Positions 11,719 to 47,594 of a stretch of DNA of 64,000 nucleotides are shown here, piece after piece (the stretch's first letter is position 1; each line of letters begins with the position of its first letter). The notes beneath the pieces are model-generated. The model worked only from the letters and a program-made list of their open reading frames with translations, had not been told where the DNA came from and searched no databases. This stretch comes from an uncultured Candidatus Altimarinota bacterium. Lineage in GTDB: Bacteria; Patescibacteriota; Gracilibacteria; BD1-5; UBA2023. Made by a program: the position numbers and the translations under genes. The stretch covers positions 1,024-65,023 of the forward strand of contig CALHQS010000038.1 in NCBI GenBank assembly GCA_938036655.1. Direction: 5' to 3'.

Positions 11719-11886
11719 TTTCGTCTTTATGGCGACTTGGTAGTCTCTCCTGACCAGAGAGATCACAAAAAATCGTATAATGATACTTCAGTATTATTAT
11801 ACATGATAACTTCTGACCAAAGTTATCAAAACTTTCCTGCAAAATCATTTGATTTTTGCATTTTATTTTCTAACCATACTATTGTT

Positions 11887-19798: not shown

Positions 19799-19874
19799 GC
19801 CACCTTAGCTCAGTTGGTAGAGCATCGGTTTTGTAAACCGGCGGTCATCAGTTCAAGTCTGATAGGTGGCTCCA
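19799..19874 (+). tRNA. tRNA-Thr (anticodon UGU), CCA encoded
   Basis: Acceptor GCCACCT/AGGTGGC, anticodon stem TCGGT/ACCGG with loop TTTGTAA, T loop TTCAAGT. Confidence 0.9.
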
Positions 19875-19966
19875 CTTATTTGGGTTTTAGAAGTTTGGAA
19901 TATTAGATTGAAAAATCTTAAATCTAAAATTCGAAAAGTCTAAAACTTTTTTCTTTTCATTTTCCT

Positions 19967-20051
19967 GGGTCGGTTCCAGAGCGGTCAAATGGGGAGGACT
20001 GTAAATCCTTTGGCTTCGCCTTCGGGGGTTCGAATCCCTCCCGGCCCACCA
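19967..20051 (+). tRNA. tRNA-Tyr (anticodon GUA), long variable arm, CCA encoded
   Basis: It aligns by eye to bacterial tRNA-Tyr: GGGTCGG..CCAGAGCGGTCAAAT..loop CTGTAAA..variable arm TTGGCTTCGCCTTC..GGGGGTTCGAATCCCTC. Confidence 0.9.
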
Positions 20052-20064
20052 CTTTTACATCTAT

Positions 20065-20141
20065 GGGTGATTAGCTCAGTTGGCGAGAGCATCTGCCTTA
20101 CAAGCAGGGGGTCGGGGGTTCGAATCCCTCATCACCCACCA
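20065..20141 (+). tRNA. tRNA-Val (anticodon UAC), CCA encoded
   Basis: Acceptor GGGTGAT/ATCACCC, anticodon stem TCTGC/GCAGG with loop CTTACAA. Confidence 0.9.
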
Positions 20142-20145
20142 TATT

Positions 20146-20170
20146 GGTAACCTTTTGGGTTATTTTTTGT
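20146..20170 (+). terminator. terminator after tRNA-Val
   Basis: TAACC-TTTTG-GGTTA followed by TTTTTTGTTT. Confidence 0.55.
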
Positions 20171-20189
20171 TTAAAGGCATCAAAAAAAT

Positions 20190-20217
20190 TTGCTTTTGAT
20201 GAAAAAATTTATATAAT
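20190..20217 (+). promoter_or_regulatory. promoter TTGCTT-16-TATAAT of the tRNA Arg-Leu operon
   Basis: Read directly. It lies about 27 nt upstream of tRNA-Arg. Confidence 0.55.
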
Positions 20218-20244
20218 CGGCTCGGTTTTGAATTTTCAAAATTT

Positions 20245-20320
20245 GCACCCATAGCTCAATTGGAAGAGTATCGGTCTTCGAAACCGGCGGTTGTAGGTTC
20301 GAACCCTACTGGGTGCACCA
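20245..20320 (+). tRNA. tRNA-Arg (anticodon UCG), CCA encoded
   Basis: Acceptor GCACCCA/TGGGTGC, anticodon stem TCGGT/ACCGG with loop CTTCGAA (positions 34-36 = TCG). Confidence 0.85.
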
Positions 20321-20329
20321 CAGATATTT

Positions 20330-20413
20330 GCTCGGGTGGTGGAATGGTAGACACGTACGCTTGAGGTGCGTATGCCTAACGGTGTGGGGGTTCAAGTCCC
20401 CCCTCGAGCACCA
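20330..20413 (+). tRNA. tRNA-Leu (anticodon GAG), long variable arm, CCA encoded
   Basis: It aligns by eye to bacterial tRNA-Leu: GCTCGGGTGGTGGAATGGTAGACAC, anticodon stem TACGC/GCGTA with loop TTGAGGT, and T arm GGGGGTTCAAGTCCCCC. Confidence 0.85.
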
Positions 20414-22368: not shown

Positions 22369-24867
22369 ATGACAAGTTCTTATCAAATCAATTCTTTGCG
22401 CGATTTTTTTGAAAAAGGTGAAGAAATAACGAAAAAACCTTTGAGTGATTCGGTGATTACAGAATATGAAACACTGGTAAAATCGGCTGAAAATTTTATT
22501 AAAAACCTCGAAATAAATAGTCCAGAGCGACCTCAGGCAGAAAAAGCGCTTCAAACATTGCGTGAAAGTTTTGTAAAATTACAAGAAACAAGCAATGCTA
22601 ATAAACAAAAAATTCAGGAAGAACTTCGTACTGAGTGGGAAACATTGAGAAACTCTGTTGTTGAGATTACACCAACTCATTCATCTCAAAATGAGTGAAC
22701 ATCACAAGAAGAGGATTCTCAGGAAAAAAATTCTGAATCTCAAGAAGAATCTCAAGTAAAGCCTGCTGAATATAAACGAGAACCAATCACTGCAAAAGTA
22801 CAAGAAGAATTGAATGAATTCCAAAAGGAGGCATTCGAGGCTTTTAAAAAACAAACACTCGGTGAAAATGGAAAAATGGATGAACTTTCTTTCCGTCGCG
22901 GAATTGAATTTTTGTCGGAACTTTCTACTTTTTCAAACATTGAAGTGGAAAAAGGAAAATTTGACTGGTTGGACACAAAAGAAAAAGAAATGCTTCTCAA
23001 ACAAATGCCCGCTGTTCAGGGAATTATCGGTTCTATTTTTGTAGAACAATTTTTCCGTGCTGGATATGAATTTGGTTTCAATGCTGATAATACTGTGATT
23101 GTAAAACCAAAAAATGCTGGTCAACAAACAAAAGCTCGTGAACTAGAAACGCAGCTGAATAATCAAATTGCTCGCAATCCTCATTTTGCAAATTCGATTA
23201 AAGCCGGTCTTCTCTATAACAATCAAGATTTGCTCACATACTTGCGAATGAATGCTACTTCTGACGGAAAAGAAATTTCTGAAGATGCACAGAAACCAGA
23301 AAATTTTATAAAATTTTTGCAAGGGCGTAATACTGAGTCTGCCAAGGCTATTTTGGCGAGCCGAAATTTTTTCAAAGATTTGGATTGGGAAGGACATTTG
23401 CATGCTGCCAGTTATGTTCCAAGTTTTTCGAAAAAATTATCTGTGATAATGGATGATCCTGAAACTCAGCAGGCGATTGCTCGGAATTTTACTCAGAATC
23501 AGAGTGCTCCGAATCGTGCAACAGTGCTCTTTAATACAATGACTGCCCCAGATGATTCTCTCAATAAACCGCTGCCAACTTTGAAAGAAAATATTGATAA
23601 ACATGGATATGCTGGAGGAATGCTCACACATACAGGAATGCTTTGGGGTCGCGGATTTAAAACTTTATTTTCTTCGCCAGAAGCAGGAACTTTGACTATT
23701 GCGGCAATGATTATTTTACCATTTGTTGTTGGATTCAAAAATGCAATGGGAATTTTTGCGGGAACACCGTTGGCACTTGGGCTCATTGATAGTTTTACTA
23801 ACGATAAAAAGCCAGAGGAAGGATCACCAGAAGAAGAAAATGATCCGCCAACCACTTCTGCTGATCAAATGGGTATCAAGGATCTTGTTCCTGAGGAACG
23901 CAGAGCCCTCATTGAATCCACTTACCCAAAAGAAGAAGTTGAGCCAATGATTAAGGCTACGGCGGCTCTTCAGACTGAAAAAGTGGGATATCTTCGCGAT
24001 TATATCGGAGGAAATGCTGATGCAAAAATTTCTGATAATGCGAAGCAATCCCTTGAAACTGAAAATAATAAAGAATTAGCAAAAAAACATATTGAAACAC
24101 TTCGGAATAAGGAAATTGAGCTTGCAAAACAATCTGGTCAGTTGACTGAAGAAGGATTAAAAGTATATACACAACTACTTGACGATATGCGACTTTCGCA
24201 GCTGGAATGGTATTCTGTTAGTTCTATTGAAGAAAGAACCAAAACAATCAATGCATATATGCAGAAAAAAAGTGAACCAAATACCTCGAAAAATTCAGAT
24301 AGCTCAAATGATGCAAAAAAACAACAAAGCTCTTGATTGTCAGCATGGGAATATGGATTTTATGGTGCCATGACACTTATCGCAGTAAAGTTGATGGGCG
24401 GGGGACCACTCTTGAAAGGAGCATGGTGAGTAACGAAATGGGTTGTGGTAAAAGGAGGTTATGGTAAAGTCTTAAAACCAGCCGGTAAAGCAATTTTTGA
24501 TAAAGGAAAAACAGCTTTAGATAAGGTGACAGGGGGACGTAAACATATTATCACTTTGAAGACTGGAGAACAGGTAACACTTTCGCGTGCAGCATATCAG
24601 GACCATCAGGATCTAAAAAAAATGCTTCAAGGGGGGAAGATAGATGCTAATGATATACCAGAAATTAATAAAAAAATGGAAAATGTATTTAAAGAAGCTC
24701 TTCAAGACGCAAATTTTAAAAAGAAAGTTCTTGCAGAATACGGAACTTCTACTTTGGATGAGGCAAAATTTTTGGATGATATGAAGTATCAAACTTCAGC
24801 GAGAGGTCTAATGAAATCTCATAATATGTCAATGAGAAAGAGGATTCTTGAAATCCTACTTCACTAA
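22369..24867 (+). CDS. giant hypothetical membrane-associated protein A (832 aa, table 25)
   Basis: Track ORFs 22369-22698, 22810-24336 and 24445-24867 share one frame and are joined by 3 TGAs with no TAA or TAG between them. It has a coiled-coil N-terminus and hydrophobic segments (GTLTIAAMIILPFVVGF...GTPLALGLI; YGFYGAMTLIAVKLMGGG). A Gly/Lys-rich stretch and a C-terminal module of about 110 aa follow. I recognise no family. Confidence 0.7.
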
Positions 24868-24876
24868 TTATTATTT

Positions 24877-27051
24877 ATGTTTAAAAAACCAATAACATCT
24901 CGTGAATCTGATTCTAATAATACTTGGCAAGAATTACAAGATACTATTGGAGAAATTCGATATGAATGACTGGAAAGTACGGATTTTAGAAACTTTACTC
25001 GAGAAGAATCTATTCAAGAATTGAAGTCAATTATTTGGGAATTTTTTGAGATGACGAGTATTTTTAGACAAAACCCTGAAAAGTGAAAAAAAATTGCAGA
25101 AGATTTTTTCAACTATATTTTACAATTTCCATGATTTGATATTGATCAGATTCAATCAATTGGAATTAATCAGGCTCGAATGAAAATCGACCTGAAAGAT
25201 TCTACACAAATTGTGATTGACCTCGCGAATGCTTGGGATGAAATTGTAGTGACGCCAGAAAAACAAAAAATCCAGACTGATACTCGTGAACAAACACAAA
25301 AACTCAGAGAAACGGTAGATAAAGATTCATTTTTTGGTGGAAATATTATTTTTGAATATGGTGCAATAGGTGTTACGACCGGGCTCGCAACGAAAAAAAT
25401 TATTGATATCAGGAAAACAAATCAGGCAGCCAAAGAGTGATTATTTCAGTTGAATTCTTTGCTTGTGAAAATGGATGATGGAAAAACTATGCGCATTCAT
25501 TTGAGTGATGAACGGCCAATTATTGGAACCCACAAGGATTTTCAAGATTCAGTTGGTCGTATATTGGAGCGCGCCGAATTACAACTTGACCCTACAACTC
25601 GAAAAGTATTTTTCCCTGCAAAAAAAATGCTTCAAGCACTTGATGAAGACTTTTGAAATCTTACATATGAAAAGTACTTGAAAGAGAATGAAAATATTCA
25701 AGAAAAAATGACTCGTGAAGAATTTGAAAAATTTCGTCAGGAAAAAATCATCGAAAATCGTCAGATGATTCGTGATTTTGATGCAGGGAAAATTACATCT
25801 ACAAAAATCTTAAAATCTGTCGGTCATATTGCGATGCACGCAGCAATGCTCCCACTTTTTGCTGTACAGTATCACCGCCATCAAACAGCTGCCAATATGG
25901 TTGAGGCTGTTGGGGAAGAGGTGGCATTTGCTATCGGTGCCAAAGTAGTAGGAAAAGCTGCATCAAAGGCTCCTGGTGTATGGAAAGCTCCAGCAGTGAT
26001 TGTGGGAAGTCTTGCTGGAGGTATTGGTGCTGTGTGGGCTGGGCATACATTTTCTGAAAAAATGCTTGATGCAAAGCGTCATAAATGGCTCACATTTCAA
26101 AAATCAAATTATGAAAATAAACGCTCAAGACTTGGACATATTGTATTTGGGATGGGCGTAAATGAAGGACTTGGGTATCTCAATGATGGACTCAGATATA
26201 TTACAGAAGATTCAGAAATGGGTGGCTTGGATATAGGAATTGACAGAATGTCATTTAATAACCCGTTTACTGGAAAACATCTCTTTACCACTCCAGAGAT
26301 GTCTATTTTTCAAGATAAGGTCACCCTTGGTACTGAGCCTTGGACTTGGATGCAAACCGCAGCGAATCGCGATGTGAATCGTTGGAACGAGTATGTAGAA
26401 CGCTACAAAACACTTCTAAAAACTAATATTAATATTCTATTGGGTGAATATAATCGTGGCGAAGGAATTTTCTCGGATACGGACAAAATAAAAGAAAAGG
26501 GTAGCAAAGAAAAATTACTTGAATCAGAACTCTATGAAGTACTCAGAGGTGGCGAATCTGGTATATCTTTTGTGCGAGAAATGGCCACGCTGGTGAATGT
26601 GATTTTACAAGAAGTAAAAAACTGAACATCAGCCGGTAGTCGAGGAATTAATGATTACATTGACTTTACTGTGAATCAAATGAAAATTGATAGAGGATTA
26701 TATTTGTATCATCGAAAAATATCGCTCAATGAGGAATATGTGAGACTTATATCTTCTACTGAACGTTTCTCGAATCTGACACCAGAACTTACAGAATATA
26801 TCAAAAAAATCCCAGAACGAATTTATTTGCAGCAGGAAATTTACCAAAATAATACCGAAAAAAACATGTATGAATCTATGCTGAAAAATAAAAATACAAT
26901 AGAACGAACTGATGAAAATAGAAAAAAAATACAAGTAACTGTGGGAAATGAATTTGCGATTTGGCTTGACGAGATTGTCGCTTGGAATCAAGAAAAATAT
27001 TTTCTTGAGCAAATAGAGGCTGGCAATACGAAAGGTTTTGAATGGAAATAA
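24877..27051 (+). CDS. giant hypothetical protein B (724 aa, table 25)
   Basis: Five pieces in one frame (24877-25179 plus track ORFs 25180, 25450, 25678 and 26671) are joined by 6 TGAs. It starts 9 nt after A. It has a central hydrophobic, Gly/Ala-rich region (AFAIGAKVVGKAASKAPGVWKAPAVIVGSLAGGIGAVWAG). I recognise no family. Confidence 0.7.
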
Positions 27052-27067: not shown

Positions 27068-27958
27068 ATGACAAATATTGAAAAAAAAGTGGAATTTAAA
27101 GATATTCCACAAAGCGTAAAAAACGCACTTCCTGACTCAAATGAATACCAAAAATTTGAAGCAGCTCGTAATAAACTCCAATCGCAGACTGATATTTTGC
27201 AAAAAAATACAGAAGATCGTCTGACTGCTCTCAAAAATGAATTGCCACCAGATATCCGAGCTAAAGTCGAAAATCTTTCCGATTTGGCTGATGCTGTTGA
27301 GGACAAAAACCTGTTTGAGCAAGCGAGGGATAAATACAATGAAGTCAAAGGTGATATAGCTGCTCTTCCTGGAAAAGCTCTAGACTCAGCGGAGGCTGTT
27401 TATGATCAAATTATTGGTTCGGATGTTACGATCAAGACTGATAAAGATTCATTTGCTGGACTCAAAACCGCTTTTGATACTTTCAAAGAAAAAGGTTTTA
27501 TCGAAGGAATGAAAGAAATCGGAAGTCAGCTCAAAGATTTTTTTGATAAAATTATTTCGATTTTTAAAGGTGGATTTGGTTGGGCGACTTTTGAAAAAAT
27601 TGGAGATTTATTTTCTGGAACAATTGATACTGGGAAAAAAATTTCTGATGTTATCAAGTGGGCGAAAGATACAATTGGTTTGTCATTTTCAGAGGGCGCA
27701 CCTTGGCGAGATGCGCTGGAAGACCGAAAACTGCTCGCGCTTCCGATTGAAAAAATTCGTGCTGGCATGTCGGTAGAAAATATTTCAAAAGAATTGGGAA
27801 TCAAACTTTCGAATAGCGATGCAAAAACATTTTTGGACAAATTTTTTAAGCCAGAAAATTTTGAAAAAATTATTGCTGAATATAAAACTAAAACCAATAC
27901 TTCCACAGTTGACGAAAAAATCGTGACGCTCAAAGATTTGGTTCTCAATCTCGGATAA
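27068..27958 (+). CDS. hypothetical protein C (296 aa)
   Basis: Intact ORF 16 nt after B. It is helical and charged, and I recognise no family. Confidence 0.6.
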   Translation: MTNIEKKVEFKDIPQSVKNALPDSNEYQKFEAARNKLQSQTDILQKNTEDRLTALKNELPPDIRAKVENLSDLADAVEDKNLFEQARDKYNEVKGDIAALPGKALDSAEAVYDQIIGSDVTIKTDKDSFAGLKTAFDTFKEKGFIEGMKEIGSQLKDFFDKIISIFKGGFGWATFEKIGDLFSGTIDTGKKISDVIKWAKDTIGLSFSEGAPWRDALEDRKLLALPIEKIRAGMSVENISKELGIKLSNSDAKTFLDKFFKPENFEKIIAEYKTKTNTSTVDEKIVTLKDLVLNLG

Positions 27959-28523: not shown

Positions 28524-28547
28524 AAAAAATCCCAATTGGGATTTTTT
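28524..28547. terminator. bidirectional terminator between ssb and gene D
   Basis: AAAAAATCCCAATTGGGATTTTTT. The TAA stop of D (28546-28548) abuts it. Confidence 0.75.
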
Positions 28548-31140
28548 ATTGATTTGGAGTTGCTGGCTCTCCAGCTGTCTGTGTAGATAAGTTTCCTGGT
28601 GTGAGTGTTTCTATGCCTGGGTTATCAGAATTTTTTGGTACTCAAGCAGAATTTCATTCTGATACAAACTCTTTTCCAACTACTATCGAGCCTTCATCTC
28701 ATGATTGACCTTCGTTTTGTTCTGTATCGCTTGTTGATTGTTTGATTGTTTCTAAATAGTGTTTAAAAGCAGTTGTTGTATTTGGTCCAAGCATACCATC
28801 TTGTCATTTTGCTGTATCTGAAGATTTAATACCAATGAGTTCTTGTAAATTTTTGACTGCAAGGGGTGTCGGGTTGTGGATAGCGGTTTGGATAATATTT
28901 TTTACTTCTTGATCAATATAGTCTGCATATTGACCCTGAATATTATTCCATTCCGTTACTACTTGCTTCCATTGAGTTGTCTGAATCCATCGCTTAGAAA
29001 TAGATTCTCGGTAATCAGTAGTTGCTATTTTTCCATTGATTTTTCGTGTTAAATCAAGATTGACGGTAGGAGTTTCTGAGAATTGAGTGCTTCATTCATT
29101 CGGTGCTTGACCATCTCATTCTTTTGATGTTTGAGGAATTTTTGGATTAGGTTTTTGCTCGACTGACTGAAAAACTTCCTTTTCCCAATTTGGGTCAATG
29201 GTGGAGATATCGAATTTTTCATTAATTCGTGTTATAAGAGTTGTTATGGCTGCAGCAGGAAGCGCAGATTGTTTCAATGTAGTTCGTAGTGCACCAACCG
29301 TTTCAGTAATCTTTGAATTCACCGTGTTAAGCTCTTTTTCGAGATTTGCAATATTTTCTTTGATTTCAGGTGATTTTTTTGATTGACGAAGTGCTTTTCT
29401 TTCTTCTTGAAGTGCTTTGAGGATTTCTACTTTTTCCTCACGAAGAACCTTGAGTTCATTTGATTTTTTTGCAGAGTTTTGTCTCCATTTATCCCATGTT
29501 TCTCGGATTTTACCTGGATTCTGCGCTTCCGCTTTTGGCGCTTCCGCTTTTGGCGCTTCCGCTCCTTTCGTATTAGAGTTAGCCTTCTCTAATCTTTCTT
29601 CGAGTTTTGTTTTATTTTCCGAAAGGTTTTTATTTTTAGTATCCAGTTGATCCATCTTTTTTGTAAGTTGCTCATTTTGTCGCTCAAGTTTTTTAAGATT
29701 TTGTTCTAGTTGTGCCTTTTCACTTTCAAGGTATTTTAAATTTTCATTTGCTTCTGGCTTCACTCTAGATTGTTCTAATGCCATCTGTTCTTCCTTTAAC
29801 TTACTGATTCTTTCTTGACGAATCTTTTCAACAGTAGCATTTTTCTTTGGAACTTCACTTTCTAATTGTTTAAGCTGCTGTGAAATTTCTTCATGCTTGT
29901 GATAATTAATTTTTTTATTAATATTTTCAAGATTACCACTTCCTTCACTTATACGATTAAAGTTGGAAATTCTTTCAGCTTCAAGTGCTTTTTTAGCATT
30001 ATTATTTTGTGTAATGTAATCATCAATATTGTTAATACTTTCTTTGGTATTCACAACTCGTTTTTTGGTATAGTGTTCCTGAACATTATTTTTTATCTTT
30101 CATGCAGTATTTCGAACTCGGTTAATACTATTAGAGGCGGTATTAGTTACTGCCTCTTTTACTTTTCCTGTACCCTGTGTGATTTTTTCACCAACTGCAT
30201 TTTTCAAATTATTTCCAGTTTCACTAACTTTTTTAAGATTAGACTGAACAGCTTTTCCAACGGTACTATCACCGATTACTGAACCCACTTTTCGTGTGAC
30301 AGGATTATTTACTACCGGATTTACTATTTTTTTTGCAATATTAGTAGGAGCGTTAACTGACCCTACAATAGCTTTTCCACTTCATTCTACTATTTTGCCA
30401 GCTCACTGTAGTGCTTTTCCGCCGACTCTTCCAGCCATTGATGTGCTTTCTGCACTTATTTGTGCTCACTTCTTTACCGCGAGGCCACCACCCTTTATTA
30501 GAATTTTCCCGAAGGTTTTTGCAATACCAGCGATACCAGTGATTGCCAAGATGATATCAACACTGGCTCGCCCTTGTTCATAAGGATTTCCTTCAGTCAA
30601 ATCTTTCAATGTCTGTGCGAGTTGATTTTTTACTTGTTCCCAGCTCAGATTCTTAAGCGCTTCAAATACCTGGCTTCGGAAATTTGAATTTGAAATGGCA
30701 AGCTCTACAAACTCTGGCATTGCCAAAATAGAATCCAATCCACCCATAAAAAATGCTATACCAGGATGACTTTTTGAAGGATTATCTTTATCAAAATCTA
30801 CCGCCCAATGAACCGCCCTTCGTAGCGAGTCTATAATAAGTGAGTCGGTCTGCACTCTTACTTGTTCAATAATGTCTTGCTTCTTTATGCTTACTATTAC
30901 AATAAGATCAGAGAGTGTTTGTTTGGTCTTGAGGATATTTTGTAACATTTCCTTGTATATATCCATTGCATTGTCGTTCATCTTTTTGCTTAGAATATCA
31001 CGAGAGATTTCTCGTAGATGATTGTCAACAATAGATTGAAATGCTCATATTTCTCCGTCATTATATCATTCATCTTTCATGGTTTGTGATACCATTTGAT
31101 TGATTTCTTGTTGCTTTGCACTGAGTACTGATTTTTCCAT
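28546..31140 (-). CDS. giant hypothetical protein D (864 aa, table 25) with a Gly-rich repeat region, a long coiled coil, an AEAPK repeat and a C-terminal peptidoglycan-binding-like motif
   Basis: Manual translation from ATG 31140 to TAA 28546 is open when TGA is a sense codon (12 TGAs by my count). It joins track ORFs 30466-30981, 30100-30288 and 29116-30054. A hydrophobic segment (VDIILAITGIAGIAKTFGKIL) is followed by GKxxxG-type repeats. About 250 aa of heptad-like K/E/L/N-rich sequence comes next. The C-terminal DGMLGPNTTTAFKHYLE resembles the PG_binding_1 D-G-x-x-G-x-x-T motif. Confidence 0.7.
29523..29563. repeat. 15-bp tandem repeat x2.7 (GCGCTTCCGCTTTTG) encoding (AEAPK)n inside gene D
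   Basis: Read directly from the sequence. Confidence 0.9.
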
Positions 31141-31169
31141 ATTTGACTTTATAAATAATAAACATTCTC

Positions 31170-31198
31170 ATCGTAGCACAAATTTTTTTTTCGGTCAA
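31170..31198 (-). promoter_or_regulatory. promoter TTGACC-17-TACGAT of gene D
   Basis: The reverse complement of 31170-31198 was read directly. It lies about 30 nt upstream of ATG 31140. Confidence 0.45.
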
Positions 31199-31279
31199 AA
31201 AAAAACAAATTTATACAAAAATTCGCTTGACAAACTTCTTTTTTTATAAAAAATATTGATTTCCAAAAATTTTTCCCAT

Positions 31280-33034: not shown

Positions 33035-34186
33035 ATGCAAATTTCTTCTTCTTTTGCTCTGAAAAATTCAACTCATAAACGGGTTTCTCTGCTTTTGGAT
33101 CGAGATTTCGAGACATTTCAACGCACAAAAACCCAAAGTTCTTTTTCCCGATTTTATTCTTCAATTTGGCGTTTTTTTGCGAATCTTTTTCAAAAAAAGC
33201 CGATTTTTTATTTCCTTCTTTTTTGTGGTGCATTTTTCGCAGTTTCTGTAGATGCGGCGATGGCGGCTGAAACAAAAACATTTATCGCGACAGCGTATTA
33301 TTCACCAACGCCTGATCAGGCGAAATACTACACTGGAACATATGCGGGCGATTTGTCGCTCAATGGTGGTAATTCAAAAGCCTCAGATGGCACACCAGTA
33401 TATGTTGGAATGGTTGCCGCTCCACGAAATTATGCTTTTGGAACAAAAATCAACCTTGATGGAATTGGTGTAGTGAGTGTCCATGATCGCGGTGGTGCGA
33501 TTGGCTCTGGTGACGGATACGATCGTATTGATATTTGGATGGGATATGGTGATGAGGGGCTGGCTCGCACGCTTGCGTGGGGTCGTCGCGAAATCACTGG
33601 AACGATTGTAGATAATGGAACTTCCGTTTCTTTGGATCTTGAAAATATCCTCACAAATGCTCCAAAAGCTGGTGATTTGGCTCTCAAAAAATTGCAAGCG
33701 ATTGGCTATAACACGACTGGGCGTACATTTTCTGATGTAATTCTCCAATTTCAGCTTGATTATGGTGTGATCAATTCTCGCACGGATGCTGGTGCTGGAA
33801 ATTATGGTCCAAAAACAACCGCAAAACTCAGTGAAGTGTACAACAATTTTCTCAAAAATGGGAGCGTTCAGGCTCCAAAAGTAGAATCTGTTGTAGAAAA
33901 TGTATTGCCTTCAGCGCGTGATAATTCGGAAATCAAAAATTCTCTGGAAGCAGAAAAATTGAGCGAAAATATGAGTACCAATTTTTTCGGAGTGACGGAT
34001 GAAAAAGTACAAAATCTCCAAAATTTCCTCAGACAATCAGGATATTCCACGGATAACAATTCTGGAAAAATGGATCTTTCAACCCTCCACGCGCTTCGAA
34101 AATATCAGTCTGCCAAAAATATCTGACAAACTGGCCGCGTCGACCTTCGTACGCGACTTACGATCGCAAACGATCTTTCAAAATAA
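33035..34186 (+). CDS. secreted/anchored cell-wall protein with a 3D (MltA-like barrel) domain and two peptidoglycan-binding repeats, table 25; start uncertain
   Basis: A TM/signal segment (IFYFLLFCGAFFAVSVDAAMA) is followed by the 3D-domain pattern TATAYYSPTPDQ...GTYAGD...DGTPVYVGMVAAPRNYAFGTKI...VHDRGGAI...RIDIWMG. It also has two PG_binding-like repeats (NYGPKTTAKL; LHALRKYQSAKNI-G-QTGRVD). The TGA at 34124 is read through to TAA 34184-34186. Confidence 0.75.
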
Positions 34187-35182: not shown

Positions 35183-35267
35183 AGACGAGTAAAAAATTAA
35201 ATACCGAGAAATTTTATCAAAAGATTTGATTTTGTCAAATCTTTTTTTTGTAAACTTGGCAAAATTC

Positions 35268-35296
35268 TTGCACAGCCAAAAAAATTCTGCTAAAAT
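35268..35296 (+). promoter_or_regulatory. promoter TTGCAC-17-TAAAAT of the sortase gene
   Basis: Read directly. It lies inside the track ORF N-terminus, which supports ATG 35337 as the true start. Confidence 0.45.
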
Positions 35297-35336
35297 ATTT
35301 TGGACAAATATAAAAATATTTCAAACAAAAATACAT

Positions 35337-36281
35337 ATGAATCTTTATGATCCACTTCTAGAAGCTGAAAAATCCGTTCTAGAAACTCCAAAAACACAAA
35401 CAAAAATCAAAATTTCTCGCGCGAAAATTCTTTTCACAACACGACCAAAAAGCTTTGTTCGTCAGCTTTTTTCGAGTGCAAAATTTTTTGTAACTTATAT
35501 TGCGCTTTCAACGACGATTTTTTCGGTTATGATGGGTGCGATGAATTTTAACGCGTACAGCGCGCGTGTGGCTCATTGGTTCAATCCTGATGCGTACGCT
35601 CATGCAAGCGAACAAATGCACGGAATTCTCAATACTTCTCACGCAGAAATTGCGGGTGCGAAACAAACGGAAGAAGATATTGAACAGCGTGCGATTATCG
35701 AAGAAAAAATTGCGGCACAAAATCCAGAAATGGTGTATTCTCGAAAATATGCTTCAGAAAATTTGCTTTCCAATGTGCCTTTACAATCAGCAGAAAAGGC
35801 ATCATTTTCGGTAGCACCACAGGAAAATCGCGTTGTGATTCCTCGTCTTGCGAAAAATATTCCGCTTATTGATGTGTATCATGACAAAAATACGCCATTT
35901 GAAGAAATGCACGAAATTTTCAAACAGGAACTCGTGAAAGGAATTGTGCGCTATCCAGGAACGGCTCGTCCAGGAGAAAAAGGAAATGCCTTTATTTTTG
36001 GGCATTCTTCCAATGTTCCTTGGATCAAAAGTGATTACAATGATGTTTTTGCGTTGCTCGATACGCTCGAAAACGGTGACGAAATTATTGTATATTATAA
36101 TCAGAAAAAATTTGTCTACAAAGTGACTGATCGTACAACCGTAAAACCTGGCGACACAGAAGTTTTGAACGCGCGTGATCCAAATAAAAAAGAAATTTCT
36201 CTCATGACTTGTTGGCCAATTGGAACAACACTGGAACGACTTATTATTTTTGGAGAATTGGTCGAAGAATCTGCTTCATAA
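35337..36281 (+). CDS. sortase family transpeptidase with an N-terminal TM anchor
   Basis: Catalytic His (AFIFGHSS), Cys (ISLMTCWP, TLxTC-like) and Arg (TLERLIIFG) are in canonical order. Confidence 0.8.
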   Translation: MNLYDPLLEAEKSVLETPKTQTKIKISRAKILFTTRPKSFVRQLFSSAKFFVTYIALSTTIFSVMMGAMNFNAYSARVAHWFNPDAYAHASEQMHGILNTSHAEIAGAKQTEEDIEQRAIIEEKIAAQNPEMVYSRKYASENLLSNVPLQSAEKASFSVAPQENRVVIPRLAKNIPLIDVYHDKNTPFEEMHEIFKQELVKGIVRYPGTARPGEKGNAFIFGHSSNVPWIKSDYNDVFALLDTLENGDEIIVYYNQKKFVYKVTDRTTVKPGDTEVLNARDPNKKEISLMTCWPIGTTLERLIIFGELVEESAS

Positions 36282-37239: not shown

Positions 37240-38223
37240 TTATCGTTTGTTAGCGTCTTGTGCGTTGTATGCTTTGAGATATGTCTGCGTTGATGCGTTC
37301 ATATAAGTGGAAAGATTATTCCTGAGGTGAATGTAATCGTCATAAATAATCGCGAGCAATAGATGTGCTGGATACGCTTTTTCCATATCCATAAAAGTTC
37401 GAATGGCACGAGGAAGGGTCGAATCGGCACGACGAATTTCTGTTTCAAGTGCGGTTGCATAATTATTGTATGATTTGATCCAAGCTTCAGAATCACGAGC
37501 GATATTTGTTCCACTTCCGGTTCCGATGGCTTGTTCTACGCTTTCTACATACGCACGATCAGATTCGAGAGTTGTGTCAAGATATGACAGATAATATCGA
37601 TAGTGACAATATTGCCGTGTCGCAGAATTGACGATTTCTTGCATTACAGCCGTTTGATTAGCATCAGAATTATTGCACTGCAAATTATCTTTTTCGCGCT
37701 CCAATCGTGTTTGTTCTTTATTGAGTTGTGTCGTGATTTCAGAATTGGCTCCATTGAGCGTGCTTTCAACGGTTTCACGAAGCCCCTTCAGAATGCGCAA
37801 ACGAGAAGTGACAATCGCACACGAAAACAATGAATTCATCGTACTACGGTACTGCAATCGCGCTACTTCGAGCGTTTTAAATCCAGAAAAATCTCCAATT
37901 CGACTCATATCAAGTTCGCTTGCGAGTCGATTTTTTTCTTCTGTAGAAAGATTGGAAAGATTCTGTGTACGCGAAATCTGATGATTCACGGCGCTGGCTT
38001 TGAGCTCAGGATATTGAGGAACTGGGCGAATCGCATTATTTTTTCCCCAATATCGATCTGTACTATCACAATAGGATTTTGCGCCATCAAGATACGACTG
38101 ATAGCTTTTAAAATCAGGATTTTGTTCGCTCGGAATAATTTCGGCGTGCGCTGGGTTTTGCGTGAAAAAAATTCCAAAAATCATTCCAAGCGCCATCATC
38201 GATGTTCAAATATTTTTTTTCAT
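37240..38223 (-). CDS. secreted hypothetical protein (327 aa, table 25), last gene of the T4SS-like operon
   Basis: ATG 38223 lies 4 nt after the upstream stop. It has the signal peptide MKKNI-G-TSMMALGMIFGIFFTQNPAHA/EII, is Cys-containing and helical, and matches no family I recognise. Confidence 0.65.
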
Positions 38224-38227
38224 AAAT

Positions 38228-40657
38228 TTAAGAAATGCGATAAATAATATCTTTTTCCACAAATTCTCGTTCGCGCGCATATCGAAGACGAGAAAATTCT
38301 TTGAGCGCTTCACCAATTTTTGGGTCTCATTTTTCAAGCCACGGACGCGGAACATCCAGTGAAAAGCCTTGACTTGGCTGACCATCCACCGACAAGCGGA
38401 GTGCTGCCTGGAATTTGTCCATATTCATAAAATCGTGATTGGAATAGGCTGGTGCGAATTGTTCTTCAAGCAATTTAGCATCTTCTGGCCCGATTTTGTA
38501 ACTCATCATCGAACCAACATTTCCGAAAATCGCATCTTTGAGGTTGAGGCTTGATTTGGTGAGCGCGTCAGATTTTTGTAATTGCCCCAAATATTGATGT
38601 GCAATAATCAGTCCAAGACGATATTTTCGCGCTTCAGAAAGAATCGATTCAATCGAATCCGTCACATAATTTTGGAATTCGTCAATGTACAAGAAAAAAT
38701 CTTTTCGCTCGCTTGCGGGCATTTGTTGGCGCTTCATAGCTGCCATTTGAATTTTAGAAACGAGGATAAGACCGATAAGACTCGAATTGATGTCTCCCAA
38801 AACTCCTTTGGAAAGTGTTGCCAAAAGAATTTTTTGCGTATTCATCACATCAGTAATATCAAACGCTGATTTTGTCTGACCGATGATATTTCGCATCAGC
38901 GTGTTGGTGATAAATGGACCAAATTTGGCAGCAAAAAATGGAATCATTTCTGCTTTTTCTCGATCACCCATCGCTGCGTATGTCGTTTTCCACCAAGTTT
39001 TTACGATTGGATTTTTGATCGTTTGTATGCGTTCGCGCTGGAAATTTTCATCCGTAAAAAGTTTGATCAGCTCAATAAGCGTTCCGCCTTCTGGATAATC
39101 CATGAGCGCCAAACATCCATTTCGAAAATAATCCTGGATTCGCGGACCGAAAATTTCTGGCCCAAAAATTTTAATCATAATGCTCGTCGCCTCGCCAACG
39201 GCCATTTGTTTTTCATCATCAGTATCAGCTTCCAAAAGATTGAGTCCCATCGGACGACTCTGATCGGCTGGGTCGAAAAAAATCAAATCTTCCGCGCGAG
39301 TTTTTGGGATAAAATCCAAAAGTCCTGTCGCAAAATCTCCGTGCGGATCGAGCACTGCGAGCCCGCGACCATTTCGCAAATCTTGGCGCGCCATCACCGA
39401 CAAAATCGAAGATTTTCCCGTACCAGTCTGCCCAATCACATAAAAATGACGGAAACGATCTTCGTTCGACAAATAAATTTTTCGGCGCTCACCACGGAAA
39501 ATATTATCCCCAAGGTACAGTCATTCGTGCGGAATATTTGTCGGAGCCTTCACGACACGAAAATGTTGCCATTTGATTTCTGGTTGTTTGTTATATTTGG
39601 AATGCGGAAAATGAAAAAGCGTCGCAATTTCCTCAATATTGAGCAAAAAATTTTTCTGCCACCATGCAAATTGTCGCAAAATAAAATATTGAATCAAAAC
39701 CGAAAGCGATTTGTGACGCATCGGTAGAAAGCGATTGTAGGCGGGCGACGCAAACTGCGAAAATGATGAAATAATATTGCGAAGCTCGGCGTTTGCCACC
39801 ATTTCATCATCGGCAGTTACAATAATTCGCACCATCACGAGAAAACCGGTTTTTTTCACTTTTTCTTTCATGAGACCTTCGTCGTCGATTGGATCTTTTT
39901 CGTCGATTTCAGGCTCGTCTTTTTTATTTTTTTCTTCTGGATCTTGGAAAAAAATTTCTAAAAATCCACGAATCCACACAAGTGGATTGAGCGAAAAATA
40001 TCGTCGTTTTCCAGGACTTTTCTCTTCTTTTCGAATCATTTTTTTGATGCGATTTTGCCAGCCGTCATCCTCAGGCTTGAGCAAAATCTGAATCGTTGCA
40101 GAAGTATTTTCACTGAGCCGACCAAGCGCCGACAAAATAGCGTTCATACTATCTGATTCGAGCTTTTGATACGTTCGAATTGGGAATTCGTCGCCTTTTT
40201 TGAGAATCATCGCCTCGCCCAACACGGATTTTCTGTTTTCAAAAATATTGATTTCGCTTGTTTCTTCGATGAGACAATCCGGATAAAAACCAATAATTTG
40301 CTTTTCAACGAGCAATTTGGATTTGCGCGGTACCACGATATAAAAATAAATTTCGTTCGCGTGCGCCGTATATTCGAAAGAAATATATTCCTGCCCCAGA
40401 AGCCAGCCCAAAAAATTCCCGCGATAGAGCGATTTGAGATTGGACAAAAGTTGCTCCATGAGAGAAATTTGTTCTTTAAAATCTCGAATTGTTTCCTTTT
40501 TTTCATCGCTGTCGCTGTCTTTTCGTGCCATCACTACACGCAAAAAAGCCATTTCCTTCGAACGGCGTTTTGCGATATTTTTGCGATATTGCCACCAGAA
40601 AAAAGTCAGGAGAACAATTGTCGCAACGATGATGAGAAAAATTTTCCCAAGTTGCAT
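38228..40657 (-). CDS. VirD4/TraD-type coupling-protein-like P-loop ATPase (809 aa, table 25) with an N-terminal TM anchor and a large N-domain
   Basis: Track ORFs 39521-40657 and 38327-39472 are in frame, joined by TGA and extended across a second TGA to TAA 38228. It has an N-terminal TM (IFLIIVATIVLLTFFWW), Walker A HFYVIGQTGTGKSS, LAVLDPHGDF, Walker B FFLYIDEFQNY and IIAHQYLGQL. This fits the HerA/FtsK-like T4SS ATPase fold. Confidence 0.7.
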
Positions 40658-40666
40658 ATTTGTGAA

Positions 40667-41671
40667 TTAGAATGTGATTCCTTCGAGAATGAAAAATCTA
40701 AAAATTGCGTGACTCGCGACGAGCAAAACGAGCCCAATCACGATATAAATAATAATTTTTTTCGCGCGAGAAATTTTTTCTTCGTCGCCACCAGAAATAA
40801 ACAAAAGCCAACCCGCATAAATCGCCATCAAAATACAAAAAATCGTCAAAAATGTATTGAAATATTTGATAATATTGGCAAAAAGTTCTACCGCACCTTC
40901 AAATCTGGCCTCAGAATTGCTAGTACATGGCGTTTTCGCCAAATCCCAAACATGACCGCTCATTTGCTCACATTTTGGAACGCCGCTGTACAAAAGTGAA
41001 ACGATTCGATGAGGAATTTGAATCAAAATAAATCCCACCAATGCAAAAATCAGCGTATTTTTCCCTTTTCCAAATTTTTCTTCGTCGCCTGACCCTGTGA
41101 CGATAATATAAAATGCGTAAATCATCATCGCGAGGAATATAAATCCTGTAAAATAATATACCAGCCCCACGAGTGGTTCCAAAATATTATTCCAAAATTC
41201 CCACCCCCATTCAGCATCAATAATAACCGAAGTTCCATTGCTTGGATTTTTGAGAAGCGTCGCCCAAATAGAATACGCCATTTGAAGCAAAATCGCACCC
41301 GCCGCGGTCCAGGCAATATTGTATTTCCATTTTTTTACATCATCATCACTTCCGTCTGATGTGAACAATTTTATCACGCCGATAATCAAAAAAATTACCG
41401 CAATGAGCAACATAGCATTTTTGATTCCTTGCGCAATATTAAAAAATGTCGCACTAAGCGCATCATTTGCATTTGTGCTATCTGATTTGATAAAATAGCC
41501 TTCACCAACATCTTTTGTGAATTCATTAATTTGTTTGTGTTCCGTTCCTTCCGTTTTGATATTATTGGAAAGATTATTGATGACGTCGTTGTTGTCTTGT
41601 GCATGCGCGATAGGCATCATCGTGACACAAAAACTTGCCAGCAAAATGAGAAAAGTTTTTAAAAATTTCAT
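40667..41671 (-). CDS. signal-peptide protein built from three tandem VirB2/TrbC-like pilin hairpins (334 aa)
   Basis: Signal peptide MKFLKTFLILLASFCVTMMPIAHA. It then has three repeats of TM - short acidic turn - basic patch - TM. These are ...IGVIKLFTSDGSDDDVKKWKYNIAWTAAGAILL, ...YIIVTGSGDEEKFGKGKNTLIFALVGFILI and ...GWLLFISGGDEEKISRAKKIIIYIVIGLVLL. Confidence 0.6.
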   Translation of the reverse strand: MKFLKTFLILLASFCVTMMPIAHAQDNNDVINNLSNNIKTEGTEHKQINEFTKDVGEGYFIKSDSTNANDALSATFFNIAQGIKNAMLLIAVIFLIIGVIKLFTSDGSDDDVKKWKYNIAWTAAGAILLQMAYSIWATLLKNPSNGTSVIIDAEWGWEFWNNILEPLVGLVYYFTGFIFLAMMIYAFYIIVTGSGDEEKFGKGKNTLIFALVGFILIQIPHRIVSLLYSGVPKCEQMSGHVWDLAKTPCTSNSEARFEGAVELFANIIKYFNTFLTIFCILMAIYAGWLLFISGGDEEKISRAKKIIIYIVIGLVLLVASHAIFRFFILEGITF

Positions 41672-46422: not shown

Positions 46423-47151
46423 CTATCCAAAATTATAGTCATCAACATTTCCACGCATCATAGTTTCTGCACCAATTCGTGGATTATAATAATTGTATAA
46501 AAGCTTGATAAGTTCGTCTTTTTTGAGTTCTTCCGCACGAAGTCCGATACTTTCGAGCGACATTTTAATGGTGCTGAGTCGCTCAGAATTCCCTTTATGA
46601 AGCTTCTGAACGCGACTTCGGTTGGCGCGAATATCGGCTACTGATTCGGTTTGAGAAATCGCCGACCAAAAACTTCGAAAAATCCCAAGAAAATCAGTTT
46701 TTCGAACACTTTCATTGTTTTCAAAATCGTATGGCACCACGATATAAAATTCTTTTTTCATAATTTGTGCCAAATCAATCAGTGTCAAAAGAAAATCGAT
46801 ATATTTGTATGTTTGTTCTTGGAGAAGCGGATTTTCTTGTTTGAGTGCGAGATTTTTGAGTTTGTTGATATAACTTTCGATATCCACGCGAAGCGAGCGA
46901 ATAATGATCTGGATTGGAAAATTGAGTGCATTCAAAAAACGCTGATAGCTCATCAAAATTGCGTCTTGCTCCTCAGTACTTTTGAGATTAAAATTGAGCG
47001 CATGAACCTTGAGAACCATACGAGACGAGCCGTCTTTCATCACGATGAGATTGTCGCGAATCTCAGAAAAAGGCATATAGCGCTGTACGCTCATATCCTG
47101 ATTTGGTTTTTTCCCACTTTTCACGGATTTTGTAGTTTTTTCTGCAATCAT
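46423..47151 (-). CDS. stand-alone VirB4/TrbE N-terminal-domain-like protein (242 aa)
   Basis: YMPFSEIRDNLIVMKDGSSRMVLKVHALNFNLKSTEEQDAILMSYQRFLNALNFPIQIIIRS follows the pattern of the N-domain of Gram-positive VirB4-like ATPases. It ends at a genuine TAG with no P-loop domain. Confidence 0.5.
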   Translation of the reverse strand: MIAEKTTKSVKSGKKPNQDMSVQRYMPFSEIRDNLIVMKDGSSRMVLKVHALNFNLKSTEEQDAILMSYQRFLNALNFPIQIIIRSLRVDIESYINKLKNLALKQENPLLQEQTYKYIDFLLTLIDLAQIMKKEFYIVVPYDFENNESVRKTDFLGIFRSFWSAISQTESVADIRANRSRVQKLHKGNSERLSTIKMSLESIGLRAEELKKDELIKLLYNYYNPRIGAETMMRGNVDDYNFG

Positions 47152-47154
47152 ATT

Positions 47155-47577
47155 TTAGAGATTTTTGAGTTTTTCCGCGAAATCTTCGTTGTTCGCGATT
47201 GAGGAAGTAAAGCTTTCTTTGGAAGTTGTTTGCACGATTTTTTCGTTTGAACTTGAAATGTGGCCAATTTCAAGTTCGGTATAACTATCCGTTCACTGCG
47301 ACCATGGACGGGCTTTTCCATTGAGCGACATTCGCAAAAAGTTGAGCGTTAGCGGTAAAAATGTCATTTCTGCGATTCGAACAAGCGCGATTCCAATACC
47401 CATTCCTGCCACAATAATTGCTGGAACGAGCGCGATTCCACCAATTCTTGATTCTAAAAATTGAAAGAGCGCGTAGGCGATTCCACCAAACACCATCATA
47501 ATCCCGAGCTGCCGCAAAGAAAGCCCAAGAACGATAGTATCTTCATTTTCGATTTGAATAGGAATTTTGTACTGCAT
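47155..47577 (-). CDS. PrgI/VirB3-like small membrane protein (140 aa, table 25)
   Basis: It starts MQYKIPIQIENEDTIVLGLSLRQLGIMMVFGG, followed by two TM helices, like PrgI-family proteins. One TGA is read through to TAA 47155. The promoter lies inside the longer track ORF. Confidence 0.55.
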
Positions 47578-47594
47578 AATTTTTGTTTTTAGAA

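What the first reader, a model, noticed from the sequence alone, without database searches (positions are those of the whole stretch)
40667..41671. Three tandem VirB2/TrbC-type hairpins fused in one signal-peptide protein
VirB2/TrbC pilins are normally polypeptides of about 100 aa with a single TM-loop-TM hairpin. Here one 334-aa precursor with a cleavable signal peptide contains three such hairpins. Each has a conserved turn, (S/T)(D/G)G(S/D)(D/E)(D/E)K, followed by a basic patch. The hairpins are separated by extracytoplasmic inserts of about 40-60 aa containing Cys residues.

This could be a polyprotein processed into several pilin subunits, or a covalently concatenated pilus or channel protomer. 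I am not aware that either has been described.
Basis: partly seen in the sequence, partly recalled or inferred. Interest (0 to 1): 0.65.

Follow-up and report, generated by a model that had tools for sequence, protein, structure and literature searches.

The report
Three pilin-like hairpins fused in one protein
An oral Gracilibacteria genome encodes one secreted membrane protein made of three joined copies of the small hairpin unit that related bacteria encode as separate type IV secretion "pilin" genes; the fusion is real, conserved and widespread, and I found no paper that describes it.

Summary
Window 40667..41671 (-) is an intact 334-aa ORF with an N-terminal signal peptide and three homologous helix-turn-helix hairpins. 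Each hairpin matches Pfam PF18895 (T4SS_pilin; 72 bits, three stretches). The link to classical VirB2/TrbC (PF04956) is weak and below threshold.

The genome reads TGA as Gly (code 25). The window is 99% identical to Candidatus Gracilibacteria bacterium GN02-873.

The three-hairpin protein is a conserved family found in about 48 species genomes. It always lies next to an 809-aa coupling-protein-like (VirD4/TraD-type) ATPase, and usually also a 319-aa secreted helical protein. The three positions are old paralogues: 58-64% identity at the same position across species, 18-28% between positions.

Relatives elsewhere carry 2 to 10 fused hairpins. Other candidate-phyla-radiation (CPR) lineages carry arrays of up to 12 single-hairpin genes instead.

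No conserved cleavage sites separate the hairpins, and the linkers are conserved. I therefore favour an uncleaved, concatenated pilin-like protomer working with the adjacent ATPase. A membrane-resident VirB6-like platform is a serious rival.

Published work describes only separate pilin genes. Verdict: a new variant of a known kind, of moderate to high interest.

The parts
40667..41671 (-). Gene for the 334-aa three-hairpin T4SS_pilin protein (ATG..TAA, no TGA codon)
41600..41671 (-). Signal peptide, aa 1-24 (MKFLKTFLILLASFCVTMMPIAHA, predicted cut before Q25)
   Evidence: Read from the sequence. Homologues share the pattern. Helix 2-18 is followed by a low-confidence stretch.
41453..41599 (-). 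Variable, acidic extracytoplasmic N-terminal region, aa 25-73
   Evidence: For aa 25-75: 17% mean identity to homologues, mean 6.9 D/E against 2.6 K/R.
41252..41452 (-). Hairpin 1, aa 74-140 (turn SDGSDDDVKKWK)
   Evidence: 82 bits with own hairpin HMM; helices 68-104 and 109-140
41195..41251 (-). Linker 1, aa 141-159, extracytoplasmic, with near-invariant W157 (near-invariant W160 and invariant P166 follow at the start of hairpin 2)
40988..41194 (-). Hairpin 2, aa 160-228 (turn TGSGDEEKFGKGK)
   Evidence: 86 bits; helices 153-192 and 197-227
40892..40987 (-). Linker 2, aa 229-260, extracytoplasmic, with two near-invariant Cys (C234, C249) that probably form a disulfide
   Evidence: The disulfide is inferred.
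40682..40891 (-). Hairpin 3, aa 261-330 (turn SGGDEEKISRAKK); the best match to PF18895 and the only stretch that touches PF04956
   Evidence: 91 bits
38228..40657 (-). Co-directional 809-aa ATPase starting 9 nt after the pilin stop. It has one N-terminal TM segment, a domain of about 370 aa (DUF8128 in homologues), and a VirD4/TraD/HerA-type P-loop domain. Two in-frame TGA (Gly) codons split it into two ORFs under code 11.
37240..38199 (-). Third gene of the module: a 319-aa secreted all-helical protein with four invariant Cys. No family or structural neighbour found.
47293..47580 (-). PrgI (VirB3-like) gene, about 5.6 kb from the pilin gene
   Evidence: PF12666, 38 bits against cut-off 27
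46423..47151 (-). TrsD-like protein, which resembles the N-terminal part of VirB4
   Evidence: NF041427 28.9 bits and NF045975 40.3 bits, both below curated cut-offs. The L002 homologue carries PF26593 TraC-like.

Best explanation
The gene encodes a covalently concatenated pilin-like protein: three diverged copies of the Patescibacteria 'T4SS_pilin' hairpin (PF18895, described in the literature as VirB2-like) in one polypeptide.

Shown:
- Three homologous hairpins follow one signal peptide.
- The family is conserved.
- It has fixed synteny with a coupling-protein-like ATPase.
- The triplication is old.

Inferred mechanism:
- The Sec system inserts the protein and the signal peptide is removed.
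- The six helices cross the membrane as three hairpins. The N-terminus, both linkers and the C-terminus lie outside. The three acidic-basic turns (GGDEEKxKK) lie in the cytoplasm.
- The protein stays in one piece.
- It serves as a pre-assembled 1:1:1 hetero-trimeric building block. The co-transcribed ATPase engages it at the cytoplasmic turns and helps assemble it into a T4SS-type surface filament or conduit.
- It is the fused counterpart of the multi-gene pilin arrays of other CPR bacteria.
- The conserved linkers, one with a disulfide, would sit on the outer surface.
For: Domain content and structure:
- Three PF18895 stretches; all 56 family members match PF18895.
- Each hairpin scores 82-91 bits with the family HMM, and no other hairpin gene lies in the 64 kb window.
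- Six paired helices are predicted.

Topology:
- The positive-inside rule is met, and Cys occurs only in an outside linker.
- A hairpin starts and ends on the same side of the membrane, so concatenation needs no change of topology (inference).

Age and conservation:
- Same-position repeats are 58-64% identical across species, against 18-28% between positions.
- Linkers carry invariant or near-invariant W157, W160, P166, C234 and C249. That is unexpected for disposable spacers.
- No conserved small-x-small site follows TM4.

Synteny:
- In about 35 genomes the order is pilin, ATPase, 319-aa protein.
- In eight more-diverged genomes the ATPase sits directly upstream of the pilin.

Relatives:
- Relatives carry 2-10 fused hairpins behind a single signal peptide. 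Some repeats are near-identical, which implies recent duplication.
- One six-hairpin protein sits in an array with four other T4SS_pilin genes, three of 120-150 aa and one of 215 aa.
- Diverged Gracilibacteria have triple + triple + single genes in a row.
- Together these mixtures suggest the hairpins are interchangeable units of one assembly.

Literature:
- Separate VirB2-like pilin arrays of 2-11 genes occur in Patescibacteria, and the array is essential in Southlakia (PMC12102498, PMC10633639, PMC12857230).
Against: - No filament has been seen for any of these proteins.
- The similarity to solved VirB2/TraA pilins is not significant.
- The partner ATPase matches coupling-protein and HerA models rather than VirB4, the ATPase that drives pilus biogenesis in known systems.
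- The source genome is listed as lacking VirB4.
- The strict number of three hairpins, the position-specific invariant residues and the 39-55% identity across the class fit a fixed six-helix membrane unit as well as a filament subunit.
- I could not inspect model coordinates or predict oligomers.
Confidence: 0.45

Rival explanations
1. Membrane-resident platform or pore. The three hairpins pack into a six-helix integral membrane protein that stays in the membrane and does the job of VirB6 (the channel and assembly platform) for the adjacent ATPase. It would be a VirB6 analogue built from pilin hairpins.
For: - Six predicted TM helices.
- Strict copy number of three, with position-specific invariant residues Q130, W136, P166, P220 and Y228 and near-invariant H321.
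- Moderate conservation across the class (39-55%), against about 25% identity between pilin paralogues within arrays (PMC12102498).
- VirB6 homologues are reported absent from Gracilibacteria (PMC12102498).
- Beltran et al. found that the N-terminal part of CedA/VirB6 is homologous to the CedA1/VirB2 pilin (PMC9905601). A pilin-derived polytopic protein therefore has a precedent.
Against: - No match to VirB6 models. Pfam lists none at E<=1, and hhalign of the family against six VirB6 proteins gives P=0.21.
- Copy number varies from 2 to 10 in relatives, and fused and single hairpin genes are mixed in one array. This fits interchangeable polymer units better than a fixed channel.
Confidence: 0.3
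2. Polyprotein. After insertion, the chain is cut between the hairpins, by signal peptidase I or a dedicated protease. This releases three different single-hairpin pilins in equal amounts.
For: - TM2 resembles a signal peptide: KKWK, then about 13 hydrophobic residues, then A132-x-S134. These two positions are small residues in 96% and 93% of members.
- Known VirB2/TrbC pilins undergo proteolytic maturation (established knowledge).
Against: - No comparable site follows TM4.
- The candidate site lies inside a predicted continuous helix, 109-140.
- The linkers are conserved and one holds a Cys pair.
- Single-hairpin relatives each carry their own signal peptide, whereas fused ones have only one.
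Confidence: 0.1
3. A generic multi-pass membrane protein unrelated to secretion. On this reading the PF18895 matches reflect only hydrophobic composition.
For: - Weak sub-threshold hits to unrelated TM families such as Yip1, MatE and DUF4126.
- The profile also hits designed helical barrels in the PDB.
Against: - PF18895 scores far above its cut-off in all 56 members.
- The turn motif GGDEEKxKK is specific and conserved.
- Synteny with a T4SS-type ATPase is fixed across about 45 genomes.
- PrgI and TrsD-like genes lie nearby.
Confidence: 0.05

Closest known systems
VirB2-like pilin gene arrays of Patescibacteria T4SS (PF18895/PF04956 hits; e.g. the six-gene essential array of Southlakia epibionticum; PMC12102498, PMC10633639, PMC12857230)
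   Same: Same domain family (PF18895). Several diverged hairpin paralogues are used together, with about 18-28% identity between them here against about 25% within arrays. N-terminal Sec signal. Encoded in the chromosome of a host-dependent CPR bacterium near T4SS-type genes.
   Different: Here the paralogues are fused into one polypeptide with a single signal peptide and conserved linkers. The neighbour is a coupling-protein-like ATPase rather than VirB4. The source genome is listed as lacking VirB4.
Classical conjugative pilins VirB2/TrbC/TraA (PF04956 and relatives; F-pilus, T-pilus)
   Same: Signal peptide followed by a helix-turn-helix hairpin of about 70 aa, with both ends outside and a charged turn. 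This is the topology required for a pilus whose turn lines the lumen.
   Different: One hairpin per protein in the classical family. Sequence similarity is not significant here. No evidence of cyclisation, lipid binding or polymerisation.
Multiplied proteolipid (c) subunits of V-type and archaeal A-type ATP synthases (from my own knowledge: two, three or up to thirteen hairpins in one chain)
   Same: A two-helix membrane hairpin that normally oligomerises as separate copies is instead covalently concatenated, with variable copy number between lineages.
   Different: Unrelated sequence family and function. The c subunits form closed rotor rings, not secretion structures. This is an analogy only (control comparison with E. 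coli AtpE: no similarity).
VirB6/CedA polytopic T4SS membrane proteins
   Same: At least five TM helices, encoded with a T4SS ATPase. Literature suggests that VirB6 and VirB2 share ancestry (PMC9905601).
   Different: No detectable similarity to VirB6 here. VirB6 is not built of three equivalent repeats.

Membership tests
Pfam PF18895 T4SS_pilin | Score above the curated gathering threshold | tested here: met
   72.4 bits against a cut-off of 26.6, three stretches. 56 of 56 family members match.
Pfam PF18895 T4SS_pilin | Hairpin of two long hydrophobic helices joined by a short charged turn, preceded by a Sec signal | tested here: met
   Helix pairs in the AlphaFold2 model; hydropathy and charge statistics. 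Only the first hairpin has a signal peptide.
Pfam PF18895 T4SS_pilin | Encoded next to type IV secretion genes | tested here: met
   A VirD4/TraD-like ATPase starts 9 nt downstream and is syntenic in about 45 genomes. PrgI and TrsD-like genes lie about 5 kb away. No VirB4 in the window, and none reported for GN02-873.
TrbC/VirB2 pilin (Pfam PF04956) | Score above the curated gathering threshold | tested here: not met
   20.6 bits against 27.9, hairpin 3 only. 5 of 56 members hit at E<0.01.
TrbC/VirB2 pilin (Pfam PF04956) | Profile-profile similarity to genuine VirB2 proteins | tested here: inconclusive
   hhalign of the hairpin profile against six MPF_T VirB2 proteins: P=0.02, 49 columns in register, probability 2.3%. 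VirB3 control: P=0.29. Single-sequence tests were negative.
TrbC/VirB2 pilin (Pfam PF04956) | Structural match to a solved conjugative pilin | tested here: inconclusive
   Foldseek of the whole six-helix model against the PDB: best E=0.17, no pilin.
TrbC/VirB2 pilin (Pfam PF04956) | Polymerises with phospholipid into an extracellular pilus | not testable with these tools
   Needs microscopy or biochemistry.
NCBIfam NF045849 (Mbov_0395 pilin-like conjugal transfer protein) | Score above the curated cut-off for an 80-aa single-hairpin equivalog | tested here: inconclusive
   51.6 bits against 40, but this is summed over three stretches of a 334-aa protein. The protein is not an equivalog in architecture.
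VirB6/TrbL | Sequence or profile match to VirB6 | tested here: not met
   No Pfam hit at E<=1. hhalign of the family against six VirB6 proteins: P=0.21.
VirB6/TrbL | Polytopic membrane protein with five or more TM helices, encoded with a T4SS ATPase | tested here: met
   Six predicted TM helices; adjacent ATPase. This is a functional resemblance only.
Processed polyprotein | Conserved protease or signal-peptidase sites between the units | tested here: not met
   Only A132-x-S134, inside TM2. None after TM4. Linkers are conserved.

The most novel reading that the evidence does not exclude
The three-hairpin protein is not a filament subunit. It is a pilin-derived polytopic membrane platform or pore that replaces VirB6 in a minimal secretion or uptake machine. 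That machine would consist of a coupling-protein-like ATPase, the six-helix protein and a secreted helical partner, in lineages that lack detectable VirB6 and, in this genome, VirB4. It would be a living intermediate for the proposed evolutionary link between VirB2 pilins and VirB6 channels.
Probability: 0.25. Interest if true: 0.8.

Novelty: new variant of a known kind. Interest (0 to 1): 0.55.

Why it matters
T4SS-like genes and pilin arrays are essential for the epibiotic life of the one genetically tractable CPR bacterium. What they build is unknown.

A covalently fused set of three, and elsewhere up to ten, pilin-like hairpins fixes the order and ratio of the subunits. That gives structural biologists a defined unit to express, model and look for in filaments or membranes.

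It also links this protein family to an abundant and unexplained class of coupling-protein-like ATPases in Patescibacteria. It bears as well on the proposed common origin of pilins and VirB6 channels.

The host is a human oral Gracilibacteria lineage, so the finding may be relevant to how these bacteria attach to or feed on their bacterial hosts.

Tried and rejected
Searches that gave nothing useful:
- Foldseek of the whole model against the PDB: only noise, best E=0.17.
- PDB sequence searches: the hairpin profile found only designed coiled-coil barrels, and the full-length profile found nothing.
The VirB2 sequence was later verified at 99% identity.
- hhalign against small VirB2, VirB3 and VirB6 alignments that I built from six plasmids: VirB2 scored best but was not significant.

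Partner genes:
- The 319-aa partner was modelled well (pLDDT 84.5), but it has no structural neighbour, VirB5 included.
- The ATPase could not be assigned to VirB4. Only 47 columns aligned, and its best model hits are coupling proteins, CedD and HerA.

Other checks:
- Promoter and terminator scans around the operon did not exceed shuffled controls.
- Rfam found only tRNAs in the window.
- I considered that the longer multi-hairpin database proteins might be read-through artefacts of tandem genes. I rejected this because they have one signal peptide, no internal start or leader segments, and translate exactly from their contigs.
- A lipoprotein signal was rejected because there is no lipobox before C15.

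Full report
**1. What is at the coordinates**

Window 40667..41671 on the minus strand is an uninterrupted ORF of 334 codons, ATG to TAA.

The window does not use the standard genetic code. Every convincing gene ends in TAA or TAG, and many carry in-frame TGA codons. In the serine hydroxymethyltransferase gene (5484..6728), TGA falls at PGIQ#GPHEH and VISG#TDNH. These are the conserved glycines of that enzyme's QGGP and SGGTDNH motifs, which I know from established knowledge of the family. TGA is therefore read as Gly, which is code 25.

The target gene contains no TGA, so its translation is the same under either code. The window is 99% identical to Candidatus Gracilibacteria bacterium GN02-873, a human oral lineage. 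That genome is listed as GTDB class JAEDAM01, 0.95 Mb.

**2. The three hairpins are real**

- Pfam PF18895 (T4SS_pilin) matches at E=3.3e-20, 72.4 bits against a cut-off of 26.6, in three separate stretches.
- NCBIfam NF045849 (Mbov_0395 pilin-like protein) also matches in three stretches.
- I built a hairpin HMM from 168 repeats of 56 family members. It scores 82, 86 and 91 bits at aa 74-140, 160-228 and 261-330. It finds nothing else in all ORFs of the 64 kb window.
- The three repeats align almost without gaps over about 70 residues. They share a turn of the form x-G-G-D-E-E-K-x-K-K-x-K.
- AlphaFold2 with the family alignment gives six long helices in three pairs (pLDDT 73.5, pTM 0.54).

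- The exact 7-residue motif fits only repeat 3.
- The linkers are about 20 and 32 aa, not 40-60 aa.
- Only linker 2 carries cysteines. These are C234 and C249, both near-invariant.

**3. Topology**

The N-terminus reads as a Sec signal peptide: MKFLK, then 14 hydrophobic residues, then PIAHA before Q25. Across the family, K+R density is 0.25-0.3 per residue in the three turns. It is 0.05-0.07 in the N-terminal region and the two linkers.

With the mature N-terminus outside, this places the turns in the cytoplasm and the linkers outside. The Cys pair then lies outside too, where a disulfide can form. A hairpin begins and ends on the same side of the membrane, so joining hairpins needs no change of topology (inference).

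**4. A conserved family with fixed partners**

The protein search returned 72 relatives. About 60 of them are 303-364 aa, cover 77-99% of the query and are 39-55% identical to it. Sources name them 'Type IV secretion system pilin' or 'hypothetical protein', and two are assigned to Candidatus Gracilibacteria.

In G-majority columns, 74 of 840 cells in the database sequences show W. In A-majority columns the figure is 3 of 728. This is the trace of TGA having been mistranslated as Trp in public gene calls.

A scan of species-representative genomes found the three-hairpin gene in about 48 Gracilibacteria/Peribacteria genomes. Under code 25, every one of them has exactly three hairpins.

Same-position hairpins are 58-64% identical across species. 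Different positions are 18-28% identical. The triplication therefore predates the divergence of these genomes, and each position has since specialised.

Synteny is strict:
- In about 35 genomes the gene is followed directly by an ATPase of about 809 aa (67-74% identical), and usually also a protein of about 320 aa (29-51% identical).
- In eight more-diverged genomes the ATPase (35-38% identical) lies directly upstream instead.
- In nine such genomes the gene row is triple + triple + single, which makes seven hairpins.
- One locus lies on a 1.29 Mb contig among housekeeping genes, so the module is chromosomal.

**5. The neighbours**

*The ATPase (38228..40657).* It starts 9 nt after the pilin stop codon. 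Under code 11 it appears as two ORFs, because of an in-frame TGA. It has one N-terminal TM segment and a domain of about 370 aa that is annotated DUF8128 in homologues. A P-loop domain follows.

The best matches of the P-loop domain are coupling proteins (TraD, TrwB, DotL), CedD and HerA, all far below family cut-offs. Against six genuine VirB4 proteins only 47 columns align.

The published survey lists GN02-873 as having no VirB4. It also reports thousands of unexplained VirD4-like homologues in Patescibacteria that lie away from virB4.

*The 319-aa partner (37240..38199).* It is secreted, all-helical and has four invariant Cys. It models confidently (pLDDT 84.5) but has no family and no structural neighbour.

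*Further T4SS-type genes.* A PrgI (VirB3-like) gene and a TrsD-like gene lie about 5 kb away.

**6. The wider picture**

I searched the single-hairpin profile against 1.84 billion representative proteins. It found 36,756 proteins at E<=0.001. Among the 150 best, the number of matched stretches was:

| Stretches | Proteins |
|---|---|
| 2 | 13 |
| 3 | 100 |
| 4 | 18 |
| 5 | 7 |
| 6 | 5 |
| 7 | 5 |
| 8 | 1 |
| 10 | 1 |

. Ranking by summed score favours multi-hairpin proteins, so these figures are not frequencies.

The five full-length multi-hairpin sequences I read (4, 5, 6, 8 and 10 hairpins) have no internal start or leader segments; four have one clear N-terminal signal peptide, and the 10-hairpin protein has no clear leader. 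Some of their repeats are nearly identical. Further examples:
- A seven-hairpin protein comes from Candidatus Peregrinibacteria (TSD00203.1, 'uncharacterized protein'). It lies four genes from a DUF8128/VirD4-type ATPase.
- A six-hairpin protein sits in an array with four other T4SS_pilin genes.
- Other CPR lineages carry arrays of up to 12 single-hairpin genes. This matches published work.

**7. What the literature says**

Published work describes arrays of 2-11 separate VirB2-like pilin genes in Patescibacteria, with about 25% identity between paralogues. A six-gene array is essential in Southlakia (PMC12102498, PMC10633639, PMC12857230).

None of the papers returned by six full-text searches mentions fused pilin domains.

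VirB6 is reported absent from Gracilibacteria. Beltran et al. noted that the N-terminal part of VirB6/CedA is homologous to the VirB2/CedA1 pilin.

**8. Relation to classical VirB2**

This link is not established here:
- PF04956 is below threshold, and only 5 of 56 members hit it.
- PDB profile searches and the Foldseek search of the whole model find no pilin.
- hhalign against six genuine VirB2 proteins gives P=0.02. That is the best of the comparisons and the alignment is in register, but it is not significant.

I therefore file the protein under PF18895. I treat 'VirB2-like' as the literature's structural judgement, not as something I tested.

**9. Mechanism**

I favour an uncleaved concatenated protomer (0.45). 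The reasons are:
- The linkers are conserved.
- There is no conserved cleavage site after hairpin 2.
- There is a single signal peptide.
- Copy number is variable and includes recent duplications in relatives.
- Fused and single hairpin genes are mixed in the same arrays.
- Coupling to an ATPase is invariant.

A membrane-resident VirB6-like platform (0.3) is a serious rival. It is favoured by the strict number of three, the position-specific invariant residues and the reported lack of VirB6.

A processed polyprotein (0.1) rests only on one signal-peptide-like feature of TM2. A generic membrane protein (0.05) is unlikely.

**10. Verdict**

The 'VirB2/TrbC' label is looser than stated. The feature is a new variant of a known kind: the Patescibacteria pilin-like family in covalently concatenated form, tied to a coupling-protein-like ATPase.

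Noticed in passing
whole window; e.g. 5484..6728 (+), 38228..40657 (-): The genome reads TGA as glycine (code 25). All real stops are TAA or TAG. In the SHMT gene, TGA falls on the conserved glycines of the QGGP and SGGTDNH motifs. Code-11 ORF lists split many genes.
   Followed up: yes
whole window against L003 (MORC01000002.1): Across the 13 kb compared, the window is 93-99% identical at protein level (99% for the target gene) to Candidatus Gracilibacteria bacterium GN02-873 (human oral; GTDB class JAEDAM01; 0.95 Mb). A published survey lists this genome as lacking VirB4.
   Followed up: yes
public homologues in alignment A1: Database proteins of this family often show Trp where Gly is conserved (74 of 840 cells, against 3 of 728 in control columns). 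Many public gene calls evidently used code 4 instead of code 25.
   Followed up: yes
46423..47151 (-) and 47293..47580 (-): A TrsD-like protein (resembling the VirB4 N-terminal part) and a PrgI/VirB3-like protein form a pair next to RNase R, about 5 kb from the pilin-ATPase module. No VirB4 gene follows them.
   Followed up: partly
37240..38199 (-): A conserved 319-aa secreted all-helical protein with four invariant cysteines and an 80-residue C-terminal helix. The model is confident, but no family or PDB neighbour was found.
   Followed up: yes
L037, L039, L040, L042-L044, L046-L048: Diverged Gracilibacteria/Peribacteria carry two three-hairpin genes side by side; eight of the nine loci add a single-hairpin gene (seven hairpins in all). 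Where the contig reaches far enough upstream (eight loci), the ATPase precedes the pilin genes. Five unrelated single proteins also have exactly seven hairpins (P0078, P0082, P0089, P0133, P0208).
   Followed up: partly
22369..24867 (+), 24877..27051 (+), 27068..27958 (+), 28546..31266 (-): A cluster of large genes (296-906 aa) with no Pfam family. Most are rich in in-frame TGA codons: 3, 6, 0 and 14 respectively. The 906-aa protein is coiled-coil-rich and ends in a segment that resembles a peptidoglycan-binding domain. These are candidate surface or host-interaction proteins.
   Followed up: partly
11737..14802 (+): A 1021-aa ORF (about 970 aa from the likely ATG start) with an S-layer homology domain (PF00395) and no in-frame TGA. 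It is probably a surface-layer or cell-wall-anchored protein.
   Followed up: partly
33035..34186 (+) and 35226..36281 (+): A peptidoglycan-binding protein (PG_binding_1) and a sortase lie a few kb from the module. A sortase is also found near the module in many other genomes. The Peregrinibacteria locus L083 has PG-binding and DPBB proteins between its ATPase and its seven-hairpin gene.
   Followed up: partly
7435..8997 (-): A ComEC-type competence channel gene (PF03772 plus DUF4131), consistent with natural DNA uptake in this lineage.
   Followed up: no
19799..20413 (+): A cluster of five tRNA genes (Thr, Tyr, Val, Arg, Leu) just upstream of secY. No tRNA reading UGA lies in the window.
   Followed up: no
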